In this document: piece by piece, positions 1 to 52,719 of the stretch
Layout of the letters: every line of letters begins with the position of its first letter
Position numbering within the stretch: the stretch's first letter is position 1
Assembly (NCBI GenBank): GCA_012522445.1
Contig: JAAYKL010000003.1
Location: 4,711 to 68,710 of the forward strand
DNA: 64,000 bases
Direction: 5' to 3'
Origin: Myxococcales bacterium
GTDB lineage: Bacteria; Myxococcota_A; Polyangia; JAAYKL01
Made by a program: the position numbers and the translations under genes
Notes under the pieces: generated by a model
Database searches by the model: none
Seen by the model: only the letters and a program-made list of their open reading frames with translations
What the model was told of the DNA's origin: nothing

Positions 1-1686
1 CAGGCCTTTGACATACGCCACATTGGCCGTGTAGCCAGCATCCACCGCAGCACCCCACTTTTCGCTGCCCTTTTTCCAGCTCCAGCGATTGGCATTGGAA
101 AGGGTGTTTCCATTGGAGCCATCTCCCGCGTTGCCCCCGGCGCCCCCAGTTTCATTGTTGGTGGCATGAGAAGATGGCAAGAAGTGACGGCCTTCGCTGT
201 GGTCGAAGCCCGTAACAACGGTTGGGGCACTGCTTCTCAAATCGCCATTGACCACCGAACAGGGATCGACCACCAGGTATGCCGAGGGCATCAACGCAAC
301 GTTGGTGTCGCGCTGGGGCGTGGTCTCCGGTTCCATGGTCCATTTGTCAAATTCAGGATCTTTGTCTGAGTAATCTATGCGGTCTTCTTTTGGGTCATCC
401 GAACAGAGCGTGGTGGTGATGCACTGCTGCGCCGCTAGGGTACACAGCTCCAAACTACCCCCGTTCGCCAGGCAATCCGGATCGATTTGGGGATTTTCTA
501 CTGCGGGAATGGCGGGCAAACCGCCGCAATCCGCGGGCACCTCTGTTCCGTCCTCCAGTGTTAGCATCGGGCAATATTCGGCGGATACAAAAGGTGTTGT
601 TGCATCGCATCCTGGGGTGCTCGCACCCAGGGCTGAGGTGGGCGTTTCGTCGGGCGTGCAATACTGTGTGGCGCACTCGCCAGCGTTCGGCCTGTCCACC
701 ACCGTCCAAGTGGTCCAGGTTTCGCAGTTTTCGCCATCGTCGGTACAGCTCAAAATTTCCTCGCCTTCGGCTTCTTCGGGCAACACGTCCGAAGACAGGG
801 TTTGCCCCGGTGCGCATTCGGCCGGAACAAAAATCGTGCTGCCGTCCGCGTGCAAAGGAAAGTTGATGAGATCAAAACCAAAATCGTCGTCGAAATCCAC
901 TGTGTATGCGCAAGTGTCGATCAACGTCATCGACGTGTCGGTGTCAATCCAAATGCTTTTGCCATACAGCGCACCATGAATTGTGCAGCGCGAAAACACG
1001 TAGATTTGGGCGTTGGGTGCGGTGATCACACCAAAGAAATGCGCATCGGTGCCCACTTTTACTTGTTGGGTTGCATTGGTGTAAAACTGCACTTGCTGCG
1101 GGGTTGCACCTTGTTCGACCACAAACTGATTCCGGTCGCCAAAGCGGAGTTCGTTTTGGACATTAACTTGTACAGTGCCGCTACCAGGCGTGATTTGCAA
1201 AACCGCACTTCCGGCTTCCATCACAAATTTGTTGAAATGGTACACGCCTTGGCTCAGGTGCAATACGGCGCCGTCATGCATGTGCAAATTGCGATAAGCC
1301 CCCGGAGGCAGGGTGACGTTGTTGCCCCTATACAATGTGTAATCTTGAGTGCCGGGGAGAACATCTCTGGTATCAATGGCTTCGGCGTCAATGGACAGAT
1401 TGCCTTCTTGAACGCCCGAAATGGTTACTTGGTTTTGGGTAGAAATGGTGCCTGCAGCATATACATTTCCGTTTACTGTGCAGCGATCTCGAAGAAAAAC
1501 ATTTCCCGATGACGAAATGTTGCTGTTGATGAGCGCTGCAGAACCCACTTCGAGATAGCCATTAGAACCGATGGACGCGGCGGAAAGCTGCACCCGATCG
1601 CGGATGTTCGTATCTTGGCTCGAATAGATGCCAAACCGGCAGGTTTGTGCTGATGCTGCCGTGGATAGGAAGAGCCCTAGAAGCAT
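1..1686 (-). CDS. Secreted beta-helix-like repeat protein. 3' end (C-terminus) lies outside the window, so the gene is partial.
   Basis: Frame not in the ORF track because there is no stop in the window. I checked every codon of this minus frame from 1686 down to 1 and found no stop. ATG at 1686-1684. N-terminus is MLLGLFLSTAASAQT, a signal peptide. Followed by G/N/V-rich degenerate repeats (GSNGYLEVGSAALINSNISSSGNVFLRDRCTVNGNVYAAGTISTQNQVTISG...). Ends in a Gly-rich GGAGGNAGDGSNGNT segment. GC and codon usage (many AAT/ATT/TAT) are lower than the rest of the window. Confidence 0.5.
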   Translation of the reverse strand, partial: MLLGLFLSTAASAQTCRFGIYSSQDTNIRDRVQLSAASIGSNGYLEVGSAALINSNISSSGNVFLRDRCTVNGNVYAAGTISTQNQVTISGVQEGNLSIDAEAIDTRDVLPGTQDYTLYRGNNVTLPPGAYRNLHMHDGAVLHLSQGVYHFNKFVMEAGSAVLQITPGSGTVQVNVQNELRFGDRNQFVVEQGATPQQVQFYTNATQQVKVGTDAHFFGVITAPNAQIYVFSRCTIHGALYGKSIWIDTDTSMTLIDTCAYTVDFDDDFGFDLINFPLHADGSTIFVPAECAPGQTLSSDVLPEEAEGEEILSCTDDGENCETWTTWTVVDRPNAGECATQYCTPDETPTSALGASTPGCDATTPFVSAEYCPMLTLEDGTEVPADCGGLPAIPAVENPQIDPDCLANGGSLELCTLAAQQCITTTLCSDDPKEDRIDYSDKDPEFDKWTMEPETTPQRDTNVALMPSAYLVVDPCSVVNGDLRSSAPTVVTGFDHSEGRHFLPSSHATNNETGGAGGNAGDGSNGNTLSNANRWSWKKGSEKWGAAVDAGYTANVAYVKGL

Positions 1687-1740
1687 CGATAACACGCATA
1701 AAGTACGTGCGTTTCCGATGCGCGGCGCGCTATCGCTTCG

Positions 1741-1775
1741 TTGTGTTGTGTTGTGTTGTGTTGTGTTGTGTTGTG
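1741..1775. repeat. Pentanucleotide microsatellite (TTGTG)x7, perfect, followed by TTGAT.
   Basis: Read directly from the sequence: cg ttgtg ttgtg ttgtg ttgtg ttgtg ttgtg ttgtg ttgat. Lies 55 bp upstream of the ATG of the minus-strand gene ending at 1686, inside a roughly 40 % GC intergenic region. Confidence 0.9.
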
Positions 1776-2182
1776 TTGATTGCATGCAACTCCCCTTTGT
1801 TTAAAGCACTTTTGGGAACAATGACATTCCTCAGTAGTGCGACACATCTTGAATGATTCGCGAGAAACAAAACACACTAAAAAAATGGTGTCAATCTGTG
1901 AGCAAAAAAGGCCATGCAACCGACGGTAAAACGACATTTAAGTAGAGATTGCAGTTGGGTGCGTGCGTATTTCTCTACATTTATCACTTATCGCGTGCCG
2001 TAAGCGTGGCTTAAATGTCGATCTTTTTGTTCGCTATGCGAAGAGGTTGGTTGGTTTGCAGAGTAAAGTGGCGCTTTGGCGATTACTCGTTTAAGGGAAG
2101 TGAGGACTTGCGATTTTTAGGGTGCTTTTTTCTTTGACAAAAATACTTTTCGGACTAACTTGCGAAATAACGAGGTGATTTC

Positions 2183-3916
2183 ATGACACAACAAAACACA
2201 CAATCCATGGAAGGGGCGCAAGCCCTGGTCAAGTGCCTGGAGCGGCAGGGCGTCGAGTACATTTTTGGTTTGCCCGGTGGTTCGGCCATCCCGATGTACG
2301 ACGCGTTGATCACGACAGGCACCAAAATCAAACTGATCTTGACGCGCCACGAGCAAGGTGCCTCCCACATGGCCGACGGGTACGCCCGGGCCACGGGCAA
2401 GCCCGGGGTGGTCCTGGTCACCAGCGGTCCGGCGGCCACCAACACCATCACGGGCATCATGACCGCCCAAATGGACTCCGTGCCCATGGTGGTCATCACC
2501 GGCCAAACCATCAGCTCCATGATCGGCAAGGACGCCTTCCAAGAGGCCGACGTCTTTGGCATCAGCATGCCGGTGGTCAAGCACAGCTACCTCATTAAAG
2601 ACACCAACGATATCCCGCGGGTGGTGAAGGAAGCCTTTCACATCGCCAGCACCGGGCGCCCCGGTCCGGTGGTCATCGACATCCCCAAGGACATCAGCGC
2701 GGGGCCGTTCACCGGCGCACTCGATCCGGTCATGGACTTGCCGGGCTACCGACCCGATCCCAAGCTCGATCCCGAGCGCGTCAAAGAGATCAGCCAGGCC
2801 TTGGCCAAATCCCGGCGACCGGTCATCTTGGCCGGACACGGCGTGCTCATCTCCAAGGCTGCACCGCAACTGCAGCGCCTCGCCGAAACCCTCAACGCGC
2901 CGGTGACCACCACGATGCTCGGCAAGGGCGCCATCCCCGAGACCCACCCGCTCTCCTTGGGCATGCTGGGGATGCACGGCACCGCCTACGCCAACAAGGC
3001 CGTTGTCGAATGCGACCTCATCATGTCGATTGGCTCCCGCTTCGACGACCGCATCATCGGCCAGGCCGATCGCTTCTGCCGCGACGCGGTGCGCATCCAC
3101 ATCGACATCGACGAAACCGAGATCAACAAAATGATCAACGTGCACCACCACTGCATCGGCGACGCCCGCGAGGTCATCGAAGAAATGCTGAAGCACGTCG
3201 GGCCGCTCGACACCGACGACTGGTTGCAACGCATCGCGCAGTTCAAAAAGCGCTACCCGCTGCGCTACGGCAAACAAGGCGGCCTCAAGGCCCAGCAGGT
3301 GCTCGACGAGCTCTACAAAATGACCGAGGGCAAGGCGATCATCACCACCGACGTGGGCCAGCACCAAATGTGGGCGGCGCAGTTTCTCAAAACCGTTCGC
3401 CCCGATGATTTCATCAGCTCGGGGGGCGCTGGCACCATGGGTTACGGCTTCCCCGCGGCCATCGGCGCGCAGGTGGGACGCCCCGAGGAGGCGGTCTGGG
3501 CCATCGTCGGCGACGGCGGTTTTCAAATGACGCTGTGCGAGCTGGCCACGGCCTGCGTGCAAAAGCTACCGGTGAAAGTCCTGGTCATCAACAACCACTA
3601 CCTCGGCATGGTGCGCCAGTGGCAGGAGCTCTTTTACGACGACCGCGAGAGCGGGGTCGACCTGGAGAACAACCCCGACTTCGCCAAGCTGGCGGCGTCC
3701 TATCCCGGCGCCCGCGGATTCACCATCAAGCGCGCCGCGGACATCCGCAAAATTCTCAAGCGGGCCATGGAGTACAACGACGGCCCCTGCGTCATCAACG
3801 CCGAGTGCGAAAAAACCGAAAACGTGTTCCCCATGATTCCGGCTGGCCGCCCCATCGAAGACATGCTCATCGAGCGCCCGCGGCAAAAAATGGAAAAACC
3901 CACCGGGTCAACCTGA
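2183..3916 (+). CDS. ilvB: Acetolactate synthase (acetohydroxyacid synthase) large catalytic subunit, TPP-dependent
   Basis: 577 aa. [43 protein letters not shown]-like and [10 protein letters not shown]-binding motifs. SD gaggtg lies 6 nt upstream of the ATG. Confidence 0.9.
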   Translation: [577 protein letters not shown]

Positions 3917-50686: not shown

Positions 50687-52585
50687 TTAGAACGTGATGC
50701 CCATGAGGAATTGCAGGGTTTGGGGGATGGTGAGATCGGTGTCGCGGTAGGTGGTGAGCTCGCCGTTTTCATTGAGGCCGGTGTGATCGCCCTTGAAGCC
50801 GCCCATGGGAAACAGGATGCCGTACTTGATCGCGGTGTAAAAATTGTCGGCGGTGGAGAACTCCACGGTGGCGTCGACTTCGATGCCCAAGTTGCCGTTG
50901 CTCTTGCTGATGGTGGACTCTGTAAAGAAGGCGCGGGCGTACATCACGTCGAGTTGGGCGCCGAGCTGCTTGCCCAGGGTGGTCTTTAAGAAGTCGTAGC
51001 GCAGCCAGGGCTTGAAGAAATAGGTGCCGGCCACGCTGCCCAAGATGTGGCGGTACAGGATGTAGTCGACGTCGTAGCCCGGGTTAAAGGAAAACATGCT
51101 GTAACGCCCGGAGTTGCCGTTGGCTTGATCGAAAGAGGCCGGGGCATGTACGCCGTCTACCTCGCGATCGCCGGAGGCGATGCCGAACTTCACGCCGATG
51201 CGCAGTTGATCGGAGAGCAGGCCGTGATCGATGTGCAGGGCAGAGCCCCAGCCGACGATGTCGAGGGAGCGCGCTTCGTCGAAGCCGGGCTGCTCGGGGG
51301 TCTCGATTTTGCCAAATTGAAACGCCAGTTCCAGCTCCATGCGGAACGTGCGGTAGAGGAGCTGCAGCCAGAAGTCGGGGACGATGGACCACATGTTGCG
51401 CTTGTGGGCGGAGATTTGGTTGTCGATGCCGGCGTCGTAGTCGTCGTCGGAGGGCTGGGTCCACCACATTTGTTTCTTTTGCTTTTGCCACGAGAAGTGC
51501 AGGCCGGCGTTGATGAGCCAGTCGCCGCGCTTGAGGATGGCGATTTCGTCTTCGCGCTCGTGCTGGTAGGCGATGATGGCCACGAGGCGGTAGGCGTCGT
51601 CGACCTGCGAGACATCGAAGGGGCGCCCGGTGGCGCTGTCCAGGGACAGGCCCTCGTTGGGAAAATCGAAGGCCGGCATGATGAGCCAGTCGTTGAGCTT
51701 GAAGGCCATGGAGAGGCGGTCGACGCTGTCGCCGAAGTCGGCATCTAGGCCGTCGCCGCTGTGGTAGAGCATGCCCAAGCCGAAGTGGGATGGCATGCGC
51801 CCAAAGCGGAAGGTGGCCAGGGGCGTGTTGACCTCACCCCACACGCGCCGCACGTTGATGAGCGCCCCGCGACCGTCTTGGTTGTATCCGTAGGTGGACT
51901 CGGGCGAGATGGTTTCGCCGCCCGCGAAGCGGCTGTGGAGGCGCGGCGAAGAGCCCAACATCACATTGTCGAGGAAATCGATTTGCGCATGGACGCGCAC
52001 CTCTTCGCTGACATTGATGGTGGGGGCAAAGCGAAACCGCATGTTGGCGCCGGCCAGGTTGTTGCCGCAGCGCTTGGTTTTGGCGCCACAGCCCGTGTAC
52101 TGCGGGGCGTTGAGCGGGTACAGGGCGCGGTCGTTGCGGATGTAAAATTTGCTGTACAGCTCGGGGCGCACGCGGAAGTAGCCGTGGAGTTCGAAGATCT
52201 CGAGGTTGCGGTTGATCCACTCTTCTTTGTGCTGCTCGACGATCTCGGCGGAGGTTACGGTGAGGCCGGACGCCGGGTCTTCGCCCAGGGCGCCGAAGTC
52301 CAGGGTCAGCTCGTCGTCATCGCCGTCGTCATCATCGTCGAGATCGCCGTCGTCATCGAGAACGCTGTCGTCGTTATCGTCGTCGGGCGTGGCGTCCGTC
52401 GGTGCGGCTTCGGCATCGTCGTCTTCGGGGGGAACTGCGTCGGGGGTTTGCGCCAAAAGCGAGACGCCCGCAGTGAGAAACACCAGCGCGAGTATCTGCG
52501 AAAAAAACTGTTTTGCGCTCAAGATCGGCCTCCTTAAAAGGGGGATATGTTGCGAAGCGTTTCGCGAAACGGATGCGATTTCCAA
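50687..52585 (-). CDS. Outer-membrane beta-barrel protein with acidic Asp-rich N-terminal region (Myxococcales-type large OMP)
   Basis: Signal-like FFSQILALVFLTAGVSLLAQ. Then about 60 aa of D/E-rich low complexity (DDDNDDSVLDDDGDLDDDDDGDDDE). Alternating amphipathic strands to a C-terminal ...TLQFLMGITF (terminal Phe). Confidence 0.6.
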   Translation of the reverse strand: MEIASVSRNASQHIPLLRRPILSAKQFFSQILALVFLTAGVSLLAQTPDAVPPEDDDAEAAPTDATPDDDNDDSVLDDDGDLDDDDDGDDDELTLDFGALGEDPASGLTVTSAEIVEQHKEEWINRNLEIFELHGYFRVRPELYSKFYIRNDRALYPLNAPQYTGCGAKTKRCGNNLAGANMRFRFAPTINVSEEVRVHAQIDFLDNVMLGSSPRLHSRFAGGETISPESTYGYNQDGRGALINVRRVWGEVNTPLATFRFGRMPSHFGLGMLYHSGDGLDADFGDSVDRLSMAFKLNDWLIMPAFDFPNEGLSLDSATGRPFDVSQVDDAYRLVAIIAYQHEREDEIAILKRGDWLINAGLHFSWQKQKKQMWWTQPSDDDYDAGIDNQISAHKRNMWSIVPDFWLQLLYRTFRMELELAFQFGKIETPEQPGFDEARSLDIVGWGSALHIDHGLLSDQLRIGVKFGIASGDREVDGVHAPASFDQANGNSGRYSMFSFNPGYDVDYILYRHILGSVAGTYFFKPWLRYDFLKTTLGKQLGAQLDVMYARAFFTESTISKSNGNLGIEVDATVEFSTADNFYTAIKYGILFPMGGFKGDHTGLNENGELTTYRDTDLTIPQTLQFLMGITF

Positions 52586-52648
52586 CGAAACGAATCAATT
52601 GCGAGACGTATAAAACATTGCACCGGAAGCGTCCAGCAATACCGAAAG

Positions 52649-52706
52649 GATTGCGGGCGGGATTGCGGCGGGATTGCGGCGGGATTGCGGGCGAGTTTGC
52701 GGGAGA
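52649..52706. repeat. Degenerate 11-12-bp tandem repeat (GATTGCGG(G)CGG)x4-5 in the giant-protein/OMP intergenic spacer
   Basis: gattgcgggcgg gattgcggcgg gattgcggcgg gattgcgggcga gtttgcgggaga, read directly from the sequence. Confidence 0.85.
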
Positions 52707-52719
52707 TTTTGTGGTGAAA

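What the first reader, a model, noticed from the sequence alone, without database searches (positions are those of the whole stretch)
1741..1775. (TTGTG)7 pentanucleotide microsatellite in the promoter region of a secreted beta-helix-like protein gene
A perfect 7-copy pentanucleotide repeat lies 55 bp upstream of the ATG of a signal-peptide-bearing, adhesin-like repeat protein. It sits inside an unusually AT-rich region of about 500 bp.

This resembles a simple-sequence contingency locus, where slipped-strand mispairing changes promoter spacing or transcript 5' end and switches expression. That would be unusual for a high-GC myxobacterium-like genome.
Basis: seen in the sequence. Interest (0 to 1): 0.55.

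Follow-up and report, generated by a model that had tools for sequence, protein, structure and literature searches.

The report
Frame-shifting pentanucleotide repeat in a signal peptide
The 5-base repeat is real, but it lies inside the first codons of a secreted beta-helix protein gene rather than in its promoter; its copy number differs between near-identical strains (7 in frame, 9 out of frame) and related uncultured myxobacteria carry similar repeats at the same spot, so it most likely acts as a slippage-driven on/off switch like the one in gonococcal Opa genes.

Summary
(TTGTG)7 at 1741-1775 is perfect and is the only simple repeat of 20 nt or more in the 64-kb window.

The promoter interpretation is not supported. 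On the minus strand the array reads (CACAA)7 and lies within codons 4-15 of an ORF. That ORF starts at ATG 1785, which has the only strong Shine-Dalgarno site (AAGGGGAG). The array encodes the n-region of a 46-residue signal peptide on a 1063-aa DUF7305/ice-binding-like beta-helix protein. Only copy numbers 4, 7 and 10 keep the frame.

Three other metagenome assemblies of the same organism carry 9 copies, which gives a stop after 21 codons. Two of them differ from the window by only 1-2 SNPs in 4.7 kb.

Orthologues in three other lineages carry pentanucleotide arrays at the same place, directly after a strong SD+ATG: (AAGCC)17, (AAGCC)6, (AAGCA)6 and (ACGCA)7. All four are out of frame, yet the ORFs behind them are otherwise intact. 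A fourth lineage has only a short decayed array.

Best reading: a slipped-strand translational phase-variation (contingency) locus, mechanistically like Neisseria opa. It is a new member of a known kind, in an unusual free-living lineage. Switching itself has not been shown.

The parts
1741..1775 (-). (CACAA)7 pentanucleotide array (TTGTG on the + strand). It occupies codons 4-15 of the long ORF and encodes TQHNTTQHNTTQ. TRF extent is 1740-1778.
1783..1785 (-). Proposed true start codon, ATG (Met1). It is the first start codon after the in-frame stop (TAA, about 1803-1801).
   Evidence: NCBI's call for the same protein (NLN61289.1, 1063 aa) starts here.
1790..1797 (-). Shine-Dalgarno site AAGGGGAG, 4 nt upstream of ATG 1785.
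   Evidence: duplex dG with the anti-SD is -7.8 kcal/mol, inside the strongest 15.5% of the 1001 ATGs on that strand (4.7% reach -8). GTG31 and ATG34 give +0.4 and +0.6.
1648..1785 (-). Coding sequence of the 46-residue signal peptide: MQS(TQHNT)n..RSDSAPRIGNAR (n-region with 3 Arg), TLCVLSMLLGLFLSTAASA (h- and c-regions), with predicted cleavage ASA|QTC.
   Evidence: the alignment with orthologue signal peptides puts their K/R n-regions opposite GNAR, upstream of Met34.
1684..1686 (-). Internal ATG (Met34). It has no SD and leaves a 13-residue uncharged leader.
1730..1732 (-). TAG stop read when the copy number is a multiple of 3 (6, 9, 12). It ends translation 16-26 codons after Met1. A TAG at the equivalent spot follows the arrays of L008 and L019.
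1677..1679 (-). TAG stop read when the copy number is 2 modulo 3 (5, 8, 11). It lies just after the Met34 ATG (ATGCTTCTAG).
1..1647 (-). The part of the mature protein that lies in the window (residues 47-595 of 1063). It comprises the beta-helix domain (DUF7305/ice-binding-like), then a Cys-rich region. The gene runs off the window start.
1786..2182 (.). AT-rich divergent intergenic region shared with ilvB. It presumably holds both promoters, which are not mapped.
2183..3916 (+). ilvB (acetolactate synthase large subunit), the divergent neighbour. It is context only, not part of the switch.
   Evidence: Pfam TPP_enzyme_N/M/C on the same gene in L001/L002.

Best explanation
The array is an intragenic simple-sequence repeat in the 5' coding region of a secreted beta-helix protein gene. 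It lies in the part that encodes the n-region of the signal peptide.

Translation starts at the SD-linked ATG at 1785 and runs through (CACAA)n into the hydrophobic core of the signal peptide and the mature protein. The unit is 5 nt, so slipped-strand mispairing that adds or removes units shifts the frame. Copy numbers 4, 7 and 10 are ON. All others end translation after 11-42 codons (OFF). Any protein then made from internal starts would lack a proper export signal.

The gene is therefore most likely a reversible, stochastic ON/OFF (phase-variable, contingency) locus for a secreted or surface protein. The downstream FGE-sulfatase-like gene begins only 18 nt after the stop, so it may be affected by polarity.

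Shown here: the position of the array, the frame arithmetic, natural 7-versus-9 polymorphism on near-identical backgrounds, and equivalent arrays in orthologues.

Inferred: that the ATG at 1785 is used, that switching is frequent and reversible, that expression follows the frame, and that this is adaptive.
For: 1. Frame and start site.
- The ORF is open from ATG 1785 through the array and is in frame with the mature protein.
- Only n = 4, 7, 10 keep it open; all other n from 2 to 12 stop after 11-42 codons.
- The ATG upstream of the array has a strong SD in every locus (dG -7.8, -13.4, -10.3, -11.8, -13.4). The downstream starts chosen by gene callers have none (+0.6 to -2.5).
- Orthologue signal peptides have K/R n-regions that align upstream of Met34.

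2. Polymorphism in the same organism.
- L001 (JGI 3300038805) and L002 (ENA SRR3166067, anaerobic digester) differ from the window by 1-2 SNPs plus one 10-nt gap, equal to 2 units, in 4686 nt.
- L003 (ENA ERZ2847880) has 9 copies on a haplotype that is 0.3% divergent.
- Gene calls follow the frame: 1063 aa from Met1 on the 7-copy allele (NCBI NLN61289.1) and 1030 aa from Met34 on 9-copy alleles.

3. Same architecture in other lineages (beta-helix domain 53-65% aa identical).
- L004: (AAGCC)17.6.
- L019: (GCCAA)6.
- L008: (GCAAA)6.
- L005: (ACGCA)7.4.
- L006: a short decayed array, GCAAT GCAAT GCAAC GCAAC.
- Each lies 7-24 nt after an SD+ATG and before the signal-peptide core.
- The units form a chain of single-base steps: CAACA, CAACG, GCAAA, AAGCC.

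4. Hypervariability in a second clade. L004, L008, L018 and L019 are 92-95% nt identical in the domain, yet carry 17, 6, 0 and 6 units, with two different unit sequences.

5. Specificity. Across 139 kb (the window plus 14 loci; GC 0.38-0.65), these arrays are the only perfect SSRs of 20 nt or more.

6. OFF alleles are not decaying genes. 630-1030 codons downstream are intact, and within the L004 clade aa identity exceeds nt identity.

7. Precedent. Opa proteins switch through CTCTT repeats in the leader-peptide coding region (PMC6803597). Mismatch repair handles loops of 4 nt or more poorly (PMC4060949).
Against: - There are no expression, TSS or read-level data. Copy numbers come from consensus assemblies; the 7-copy allele was seen in one assembly and the 9-copy allele in three.
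- Five of the six distinct array-bearing alleles are out of frame. That fits a random 1/3 ON expectation (P about 0.35 for one or fewer ON in six), but it would also fit a model in which the long ORF is not the functional one.
- In L008 and L019 a downstream ATG (METKLRW...) has its own complete signal peptide, so there the protein might be made regardless of the array.
- In the 9-copy allele, frame 0 is also open from two upstream ATGs without SD (L001 2740 and 2830), so OFF may be leaky.
- The SD-to-ATG spacing in the window is short (4 nt).
- I had no signal-peptide predictor; the export argument rests on charge and length rules and on the orthologue alignment.
Confidence: 0.7

Rival explanations
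1. Leader-ORF (uORF) rheostat. The SD-linked ATG opens a short leader ORF that contains the array, and the protein proper starts at an internal ATG (Met34 here, METKLRW in L008/L019, MGWR in L005). Copy number decides where leader translation ends relative to that ATG. This tunes re-initiation or coupling and gives graded rather than ON/OFF expression, as with the multiple starts around the CAAT tract of H. influenzae lic1 (from my own knowledge).
For: - Most array alleles are out of frame with the SD-ATG.
- In L005 the out-of-frame leader ORF stops 9 nt before the internal ATG. In the window, 8 copies would stop 4 nt after the Met34 ATG.
- L008 and L019 have a complete signal peptide after their internal ATG.
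Against: - Internal starts have no SD (dG +0.6 to -2.5).
- Met34 leaves a 13-residue uncharged leader that is unlikely to direct export.
- L004 has no internal start before the hydrophobic core at all.
- The post-array segment is conserved as peptide in frame 0: RSDSAPRIGNAR (window) against RGRSAPLIAASR (L004).
- The array-less relatives L018 and L010 and the decayed-array L006 read straight from the SD-ATG into the signal peptide.
Confidence: 0.13
2. Transcriptional contingency locus. The array lies in the promoter or 5' UTR of a gene that starts at ATG 1686, and its length changes promoter spacing or the 5' end of the transcript.
For: - The array is 55 nt upstream of an in-frame ATG that JGI/ENA callers used.
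- It borders an AT-rich divergent intergenic region.
- SSRs in promoters or 5' UTRs are a known class (PMC12721329 abstract).
Against: - No sigma-70-like match flanks the array; the only hit is at 2140-2113.
- A 35-45-nt array cannot sit in a 16-18-nt promoter spacer.
- ATG 1686 has no SD and gives a defective signal peptide.
- The callers' choice of Met34 is explained by the 9-copy frameshift.
- An SD+ATG immediately precedes the array in all five lineages.
Confidence: 0.05
3. Neutral or degenerative microsatellite. The array is a selectively meaningless expansion in a tolerant low-complexity N-terminus, and the out-of-frame alleles are simply inactivated genes or assembly errors.
For: - Most alleles are out of frame.
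- One close relative (L018) has lost the array, and one paralogous clade (L010/L011) never shows it.
- Consensus assemblies can misjudge repeats.
Against: - Arrays are 30-88 nt, shorter than the assembly k-mers given in the contig names (k127, k141, k87), so single reads span them.
- The same 9-copy count was recovered by three assemblies.
- OFF alleles have no other lesion in 630-1030 codons, and the domain is under purifying selection (aa identity above nt identity).
- Arrays of different sequence sit at the same site in lineages only 53-65% identical, while no other SSR of 20 nt or more occurs in 139 kb.
Confidence: 0.1

Closest known systems
Neisseria gonorrhoeae / N. meningitidis opa genes: (CTCTT)n in the leader-peptide coding region
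   Same: A pentanucleotide unit sits inside the sequence that encodes the signal (leader) peptide of an exported protein. Gain or loss of units moves the mature protein in or out of frame, giving translational ON/OFF control (PMC6803597).
   Different: - In opa the CTCTT units encode the hydrophobic core of the leader (my own knowledge). Here the units encode the polar n-region, just after the start codon.
- The protein family differs: a small outer-membrane beta-barrel there, a 1063-aa DUF7305/ice-binding-like beta-helix protein here.
- Opa is a family of about 11 genes that also recombines. Here there is one array-bearing gene plus one array-less paralogue.
- The host is an obligate human pathogen there, and uncultured Myxococcales here; two of the contigs are labelled anaerobic digester metagenome.
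- Switching is measured for opa and not measured here.
Haemophilus influenzae tetranucleotide contingency loci (lic1 CAAT, hgp CCAA, mod AGCC/AGTC)
   Same: A perfect SSR whose unit is not a multiple of 3 lies near the 5' end of an ORF for a surface-related product. Tract length differs between close strains (general description in PMC11868660; the loci are named from my own knowledge).
   Different: The units there are 4 nt. The genomes are small, low-GC, host-adapted and hold many such loci. Here I saw a single locus in 64 kb of a 65% GC genome.
Promoter or 5'-UTR SSR switches (e.g. H. influenzae hif TA repeats, N. meningitidis nadA TAAA, opc poly-C)
   Different: Those arrays lie between or upstream of promoter elements or in the UTR. 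This one lies downstream of the SD and the start codon, inside the ORF.
DUF3494 / ice-binding-like and DUF7305 beta-helix proteins
   Same: The N-terminal 240 residues of the mature protein match Pfam DUF7305 and Ice_binding-like. They model as a confident beta-helix whose best PDB neighbours are DUF3494 ice-binding proteins.
   Different: The structural similarity is weak (TM-score normalised to the target at most 0.5; 10-16% identity). Two of the contigs are labelled anaerobic digester metagenome, which is not a cold habitat, so ice binding is unlikely. The C-terminal 750 residues have no family match and modelled poorly.

Membership tests
SSR-mediated translational phase-variable (contingency) locus | A perfect tandem tract of a short unit, long enough to slip (about 5 or more units for 4-5-nt units) | tested here: met
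   7 perfect units (7.8 by TRF), 100% matches. Orthologues carry 6-17 units.
SSR-mediated translational phase-variable (contingency) locus | The tract lies inside the translated ORF and its unit length is not a multiple of 3, so a unit change shifts the frame | tested here: met
   The ORF runs from the SD-linked ATG 1785 through the array. Only n = 4, 7, 10 stay open. Use of that ATG is inferred, not measured.
SSR-mediated translational phase-variable (contingency) locus | Tract-length polymorphism between otherwise near-identical genomes | tested here: met
   7 versus 9 units with 1-2 SNPs in 4686 nt. In the L004 clade, 0, 6, 6 and 17 units at 92-95% nt identity.
SSR-mediated translational phase-variable (contingency) locus | High-frequency, reversible switching within a clonal population, with matching loss and gain of the product | not testable with these tools
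   The organism is uncultured and no reads or expression data are available here.
SSR-mediated translational phase-variable (contingency) locus | The product is surface-exposed or secreted, or otherwise under fluctuating selection | tested here: inconclusive
   A Sec-type signal peptide is inferred from sequence and the orthologue alignment. The beta-helix fold is shared with adhesin-like proteins. Localisation and function are unknown.
Opa-type switch (pentanucleotide repeat in the leader-peptide coding sequence) | A 5-nt unit located within the signal-peptide coding region | tested here: met
   The array lies within codons 4-15 of a 46-codon predicted signal peptide.
Opa-type switch (pentanucleotide repeat in the leader-peptide coding sequence) | Homology to Opa proteins or to the CTCTT unit | tested here: not met
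   Pfam and NCBIfam give only DUF7305/Ice_binding-like, and the unit is CACAA. It works like opa but is not a member of that gene family.
Promoter-spacer / upstream SSR transcriptional switch | The tract lies between the -35 and -10 elements or upstream of the transcription start | tested here: not met
   The tract is downstream of the SD and ATG. No promoter-like hexamers flank it, and it is too long (35-45 nt) for a spacer. The TSS is not mapped.
Pfam DUF7305 / Ice_binding-like (DUF3494) beta-helix domain | Score above the Pfam gathering threshold | tested here: met
   DUF7305 scores 40.9 bits against a cut-off of 27. Ice_binding scores 30.0 against 28.7 on the window fragment, but 27.6 (just below) on the full-length protein.

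The most novel reading that the evidence does not exclude
A contingency locus has been kept for a long time in free-living, non-host-associated uncultured Myxococcales. A hypermutable pentanucleotide tract has persisted at one site, the signal-peptide n-region of a beta-helix surface protein, across lineages only 53-65% identical in that protein. Meanwhile its unit sequence has turned over by single-base steps (CAACA, CAACG, GCAAA, AAGCC). That would mean selection acts on mutability itself rather than on the encoded peptide, perhaps as bet-hedging against phage or predators, or between attached and planktonic life in anaerobic digesters.
Probability: 0.45. Interest if true: 0.72.

Novelty: new member of a known kind. 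Interest (0 to 1): 0.6.

Why it matters
SSR contingency loci are textbook features of small-genome, host-adapted pathogens, and long SSRs correlate with host dependence (PMC4060949). My literature searches found no description of such a locus in Myxococcota.

This case would extend Opa-style frame switching to an uncultured, high-GC environmental lineage. It also offers a natural series of orthologues: array present, replaced, decayed or lost. That series can be used to ask whether mutability is itself maintained by selection.

There is a practical point for annotation. The start codon and length of this gene (1030 versus 1063 aa, and 634/650/653/656-aa truncated calls in relatives) depend on the repeat count in the assembly. 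Gene callers therefore silently mis-start the OFF alleles.

Tried and rejected
- Rfam scan of 1500-2400 at E up to 1: only a chance snoRNA hit, and no leader or riboswitch.
- Promoter/terminator scan of 1600-2300: one promoter-like site far from the array, no more than shuffles give.
- Metagenome scan for the left flank plus two units: 0 hits.
- Protein-guided metagenome scan: mostly loci already held, plus a distant array-less lipoprotein homologue, L014.
- Contig look-ups for the NCBI 1063-aa form (P0012) and the LSQX01 895-aa form (P0013): not on record. I could not see a second 7-copy contig, or why P0013 starts at Met169.
- Profile search with A1 through the word index: nothing new with an informative 5' end.
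- Search with the C-terminal 498 residues: no hits.
- Comparison of the C-terminal half with the second genes of the L008 and L010 operons: no similarity.
- AlphaFold on a 5-sequence alignment: only the beta-helix domain was confident, so the idea of a C-terminal outer-membrane barrel (autotransporter-like) could not be tested.
- Paralogues in the window: none.
- Selection on the encoded pentapeptide (QHNTT, QRNAT, AKPSQ, SKAKQ): rejected, because the peptides differ between lineages and most alleles are out of frame.

Full report
OBSERVATION

Window 1741-1775 is a perfect (TTGTG)7. TRF gives 1740-1778, period 5, 7.8 copies and 100% matches, and no other period-5 array appears in the 64 kb. 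A 15-nt piece of the array is expected 0.00 times in dinucleotide-preserving shuffles. My own census found it to be the only perfect SSR of 20 nt or more in the window.

The surrounding dip in GC (0.40-0.45 over about 1700-2200, against 0.65 for the window as a whole) is real. It corresponds to the 397-bp divergent intergenic region between a minus-strand gene and ilvB (2183-3916, +), followed by ilvN.

WHERE THE ARRAY REALLY LIES

On the minus strand the array reads (CACAA)7. The frame is open between the two and closed by a stop just upstream of 1785.

The long form reads MQSTQHNTTQHNTTQRSDSAPRIGNARTLCVLSM(34)LLGLFLSTAASA|QTCRFGIYS... The array therefore lies within codons 4-15.

- ATG 1785 is preceded by AAGGGGAG. 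The SD/anti-SD duplex energy is -7.8 kcal/mol, against +0.4 and +0.6 for GTG31 and ATG34.
- Starting at Met34 would leave a 13-residue leader with no charged n-region.
- Orthologues have K/R-containing n-regions that align with ...GNAR..., upstream of Met34.
- NCBI's annotation of the same protein (NLN61289.1, MAG 'Myxococcales bacterium', 1063 aa) starts at Met1.

Simulating copy numbers 2-12 shows that only 4, 7 and 10 keep the ORF open. All others stop after 11-42 codons. No promoter-like hexamers flank the array, and Rfam finds nothing in the region.

NATURAL LENGTH POLYMORPHISM

The 100%-identical protein occurs on other public contigs.

- L001 (JGI 3300038805), L002 (ENA, SRR3166067, anaerobic digester) and L003 (ENA ERZ2847880) all carry 9 units.
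- L001 and L002 differ from the window by 2 and 1 SNPs plus a single 10-nt gap, exactly two units, in 4686 nt.
- L003 is a 0.3%-divergent haplotype.
- Nine units put the SD-linked ATG out of frame (MQSTQHNTTQHNTTQHNTTKR*). That explains why JGI and ENA callers start the gene at Met34 (1030 aa).
- The arrays (35-45 nt) are shorter than the assembly k-mer named in the L002 contig (k127), so a mis-assembly is unlikely.

It toggles the reading frame.

ORTHOLOGUES

A protein-guided scan of one genome per species, plus contig look-ups, gave related loci. Each of the loci below has a strong SD+ATG (dG -10 to -13) followed within 7-24 nt by a pentanucleotide array, then a basic segment, then the hydrophobic core and AxA|Q-x-C.

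| Locus | Array | State |
|---|---|---|
| L004 | (AAGCC)17.6, with one AAGCA unit | out of frame |
| L019 | (GCCAA)6 | out of frame |
| L008 | (GCAAA)6 | out of frame |
| L005 | (ACGCA)7.4 | out of frame |
| L006 | short decayed version, GCAAT GCAAT GCAAC GCAAC | in frame |

- L018, a close relative of L004, has the same SD+ATGCGCGTGTCG but no array, and is in frame.
- The L010/L011 clade has no array. One member of that clade is an array-less paralogue in the same MAG as the window gene (NLN61405.1).
- All four long arrays are out of frame in their assemblies, but 630-656 codons behind them are intact.
- L004, L008, L018 and L019 are 92-95% nt and 94-98% aa identical in the domain. Aa identity above nt identity points to purifying selection. 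Even so, their arrays are 17, 6, 0 and 6 units with two unit sequences, which is a second instance of hypervariability.
- The deep lineages (window, L004 clade, L005, L006) are only 53-65% identical.
- Their units form a chain of single-base changes: CAACA, CAACG, GCAAA (= AAGCA), AAGCC.
- Across 139 kb of window and loci, with GC from 0.38 to 0.65, these arrays are the only SSRs of 20 nt or more.
- The post-array peptide is conserved in the mature frame: RSDSAPRIGNAR in the window and RGRSAPLIAASR in L004.

MECHANISM

The best-supported model is a translational ON/OFF switch driven by slipped-strand mispairing in the leader-peptide coding sequence. This is the mechanism described for opa (CTCTT)n (PMC6803597). 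Pentanucleotide loops are poorly corrected by methyl-directed mismatch repair (PMC4060949), which would keep such a tract mutable.

Shown:
- the anatomy of the locus;
- the frame arithmetic;
- polymorphism on near-identical backgrounds;
- recurrence of the array in orthologues.

Inferred:
- use of ATG 1785;
- the rate and reversibility of switching;
- the effect on export;
- adaptive value.

Caveats:
- Five of the six distinct array alleles are OFF. This is compatible with a one-third chance of being ON, but also with a leader-ORF model.
- L008 and L019 have an internal ATG with its own signal peptide.
- In the 9-copy allele, two SD-less upstream ATGs are in frame.

THE PROTEIN

Pfam gives DUF7305 and Ice_binding-like. 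NCBIfam gives nothing.

AlphaFold on a shallow alignment gives a confident beta-helix for mature residues about 1-240 and nothing reliable beyond. Its nearest PDB folds are DUF3494 ice-binding proteins, and more weakly tapirin adhesins.

The domain is widespread and modular: 3629 representatives at E <= 1e-3. The closest full-length relative, P0019, has no pentapeptide-periodic N-terminus.

An FGE-sulfatase-like gene follows 18 nt downstream here, and one lies one or two genes further downstream in L008, L010, L011 and L019. Polarity on an operon is therefore possible. Function remains unknown; an adhesin or other surface role is a guess.

COMPARISON AND NOVELTY

The locus works like opa and like Haemophilus 5'-coding tetranucleotide loci. 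It is not homologous to them. It does not fit promoter-spacer SSR switches.

My literature searches found no Myxococcota contingency locus, and long SSRs are reported to track host dependence. I rate it a new member of a known kind, with moderately high interest because of the lineage, the habitat and the cross-species persistence with unit turnover.

DEAD ENDS

- The flank-pattern metagenome scan found nothing.
- Look-ups for P0012 and P0013 found nothing on record.
- The C-terminal homology search found nothing.
- The C-terminal half shows no similarity to neighbouring genes of other loci.
- There are no paralogues in the window.

Noticed in passing
window 2186-2200 (+), first codons of ilvB: ACACAACAAAACACA is 14/15 complementary to the TTGTG array. 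The mRNAs of both divergent genes therefore begin with ATG followed by CA-rich, CACAA-like text (MTQQNTQ... and MQSTQHNTTQ...). This could be chance in low-complexity sequence, a relic of how the array arose, or an unstructured CA-rich translation-start context.
   Followed up: partly
window 52648-52711: An imperfect intergenic tandem repeat of 11-12 bp (GGATTGCGGGC, about 5 copies, 91% matches) lies just after the stop of the 1753-aa minus-strand ORF. It is about 120-190 nt upstream of the next minus-strand gene, which starts near 52520. It may be a set of iterated regulator-binding sites.
   Followed up: no
window 59123-59509: A 210-bp tandem repeat (1.8 copies, 78% matches) lies inside the 1945-aa minus-strand ORF 58067-63904. 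GCAGGTGCC-type 9-mers recur nearby. It looks like a Cys-rich repeat protein.
   Followed up: no
window 1-1785 versus the rest: The beta-helix gene has GC of about 0.49-0.58, against 0.65 for the window as a whole. This atypical composition could mean horizontal acquisition or relaxed codon adaptation.
   Followed up: no
L005 1486-1511 and 1319-1358: Just upstream of the L005 array-bearing start, the SD region is itself duplicated (CCATTACGGAGG CCATTACAGGAGG, period 12). A 15-bp repeat of 2.9 copies lies about 160 nt further upstream.
   Followed up: no
L001 2740 and 2830 (window about 1937 and 1847, minus strand): In the 9-copy allele, two upstream ATGs without SD come into frame with the mature protein, giving 100- and 70-residue leaders. 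The 'OFF' state may therefore be leaky.
   Followed up: partly
L017 (JGI Ga0265293_10003198) 355-720: This is a variant of the array-less paralogue clade in which residues about 10-150 appear to be deleted, so that the start region joins directly to the middle of the beta-helix domain.
   Followed up: no
L003 4012-4992 versus L001 6111-7091: The FGE-sulfatase-like gene downstream is called as one 326-aa product in L001/L002 but as two pieces (140 + 168 aa) in L003. This could be a frameshift or stop in that strain, or an assembly error at 5x coverage.
   Followed up: no
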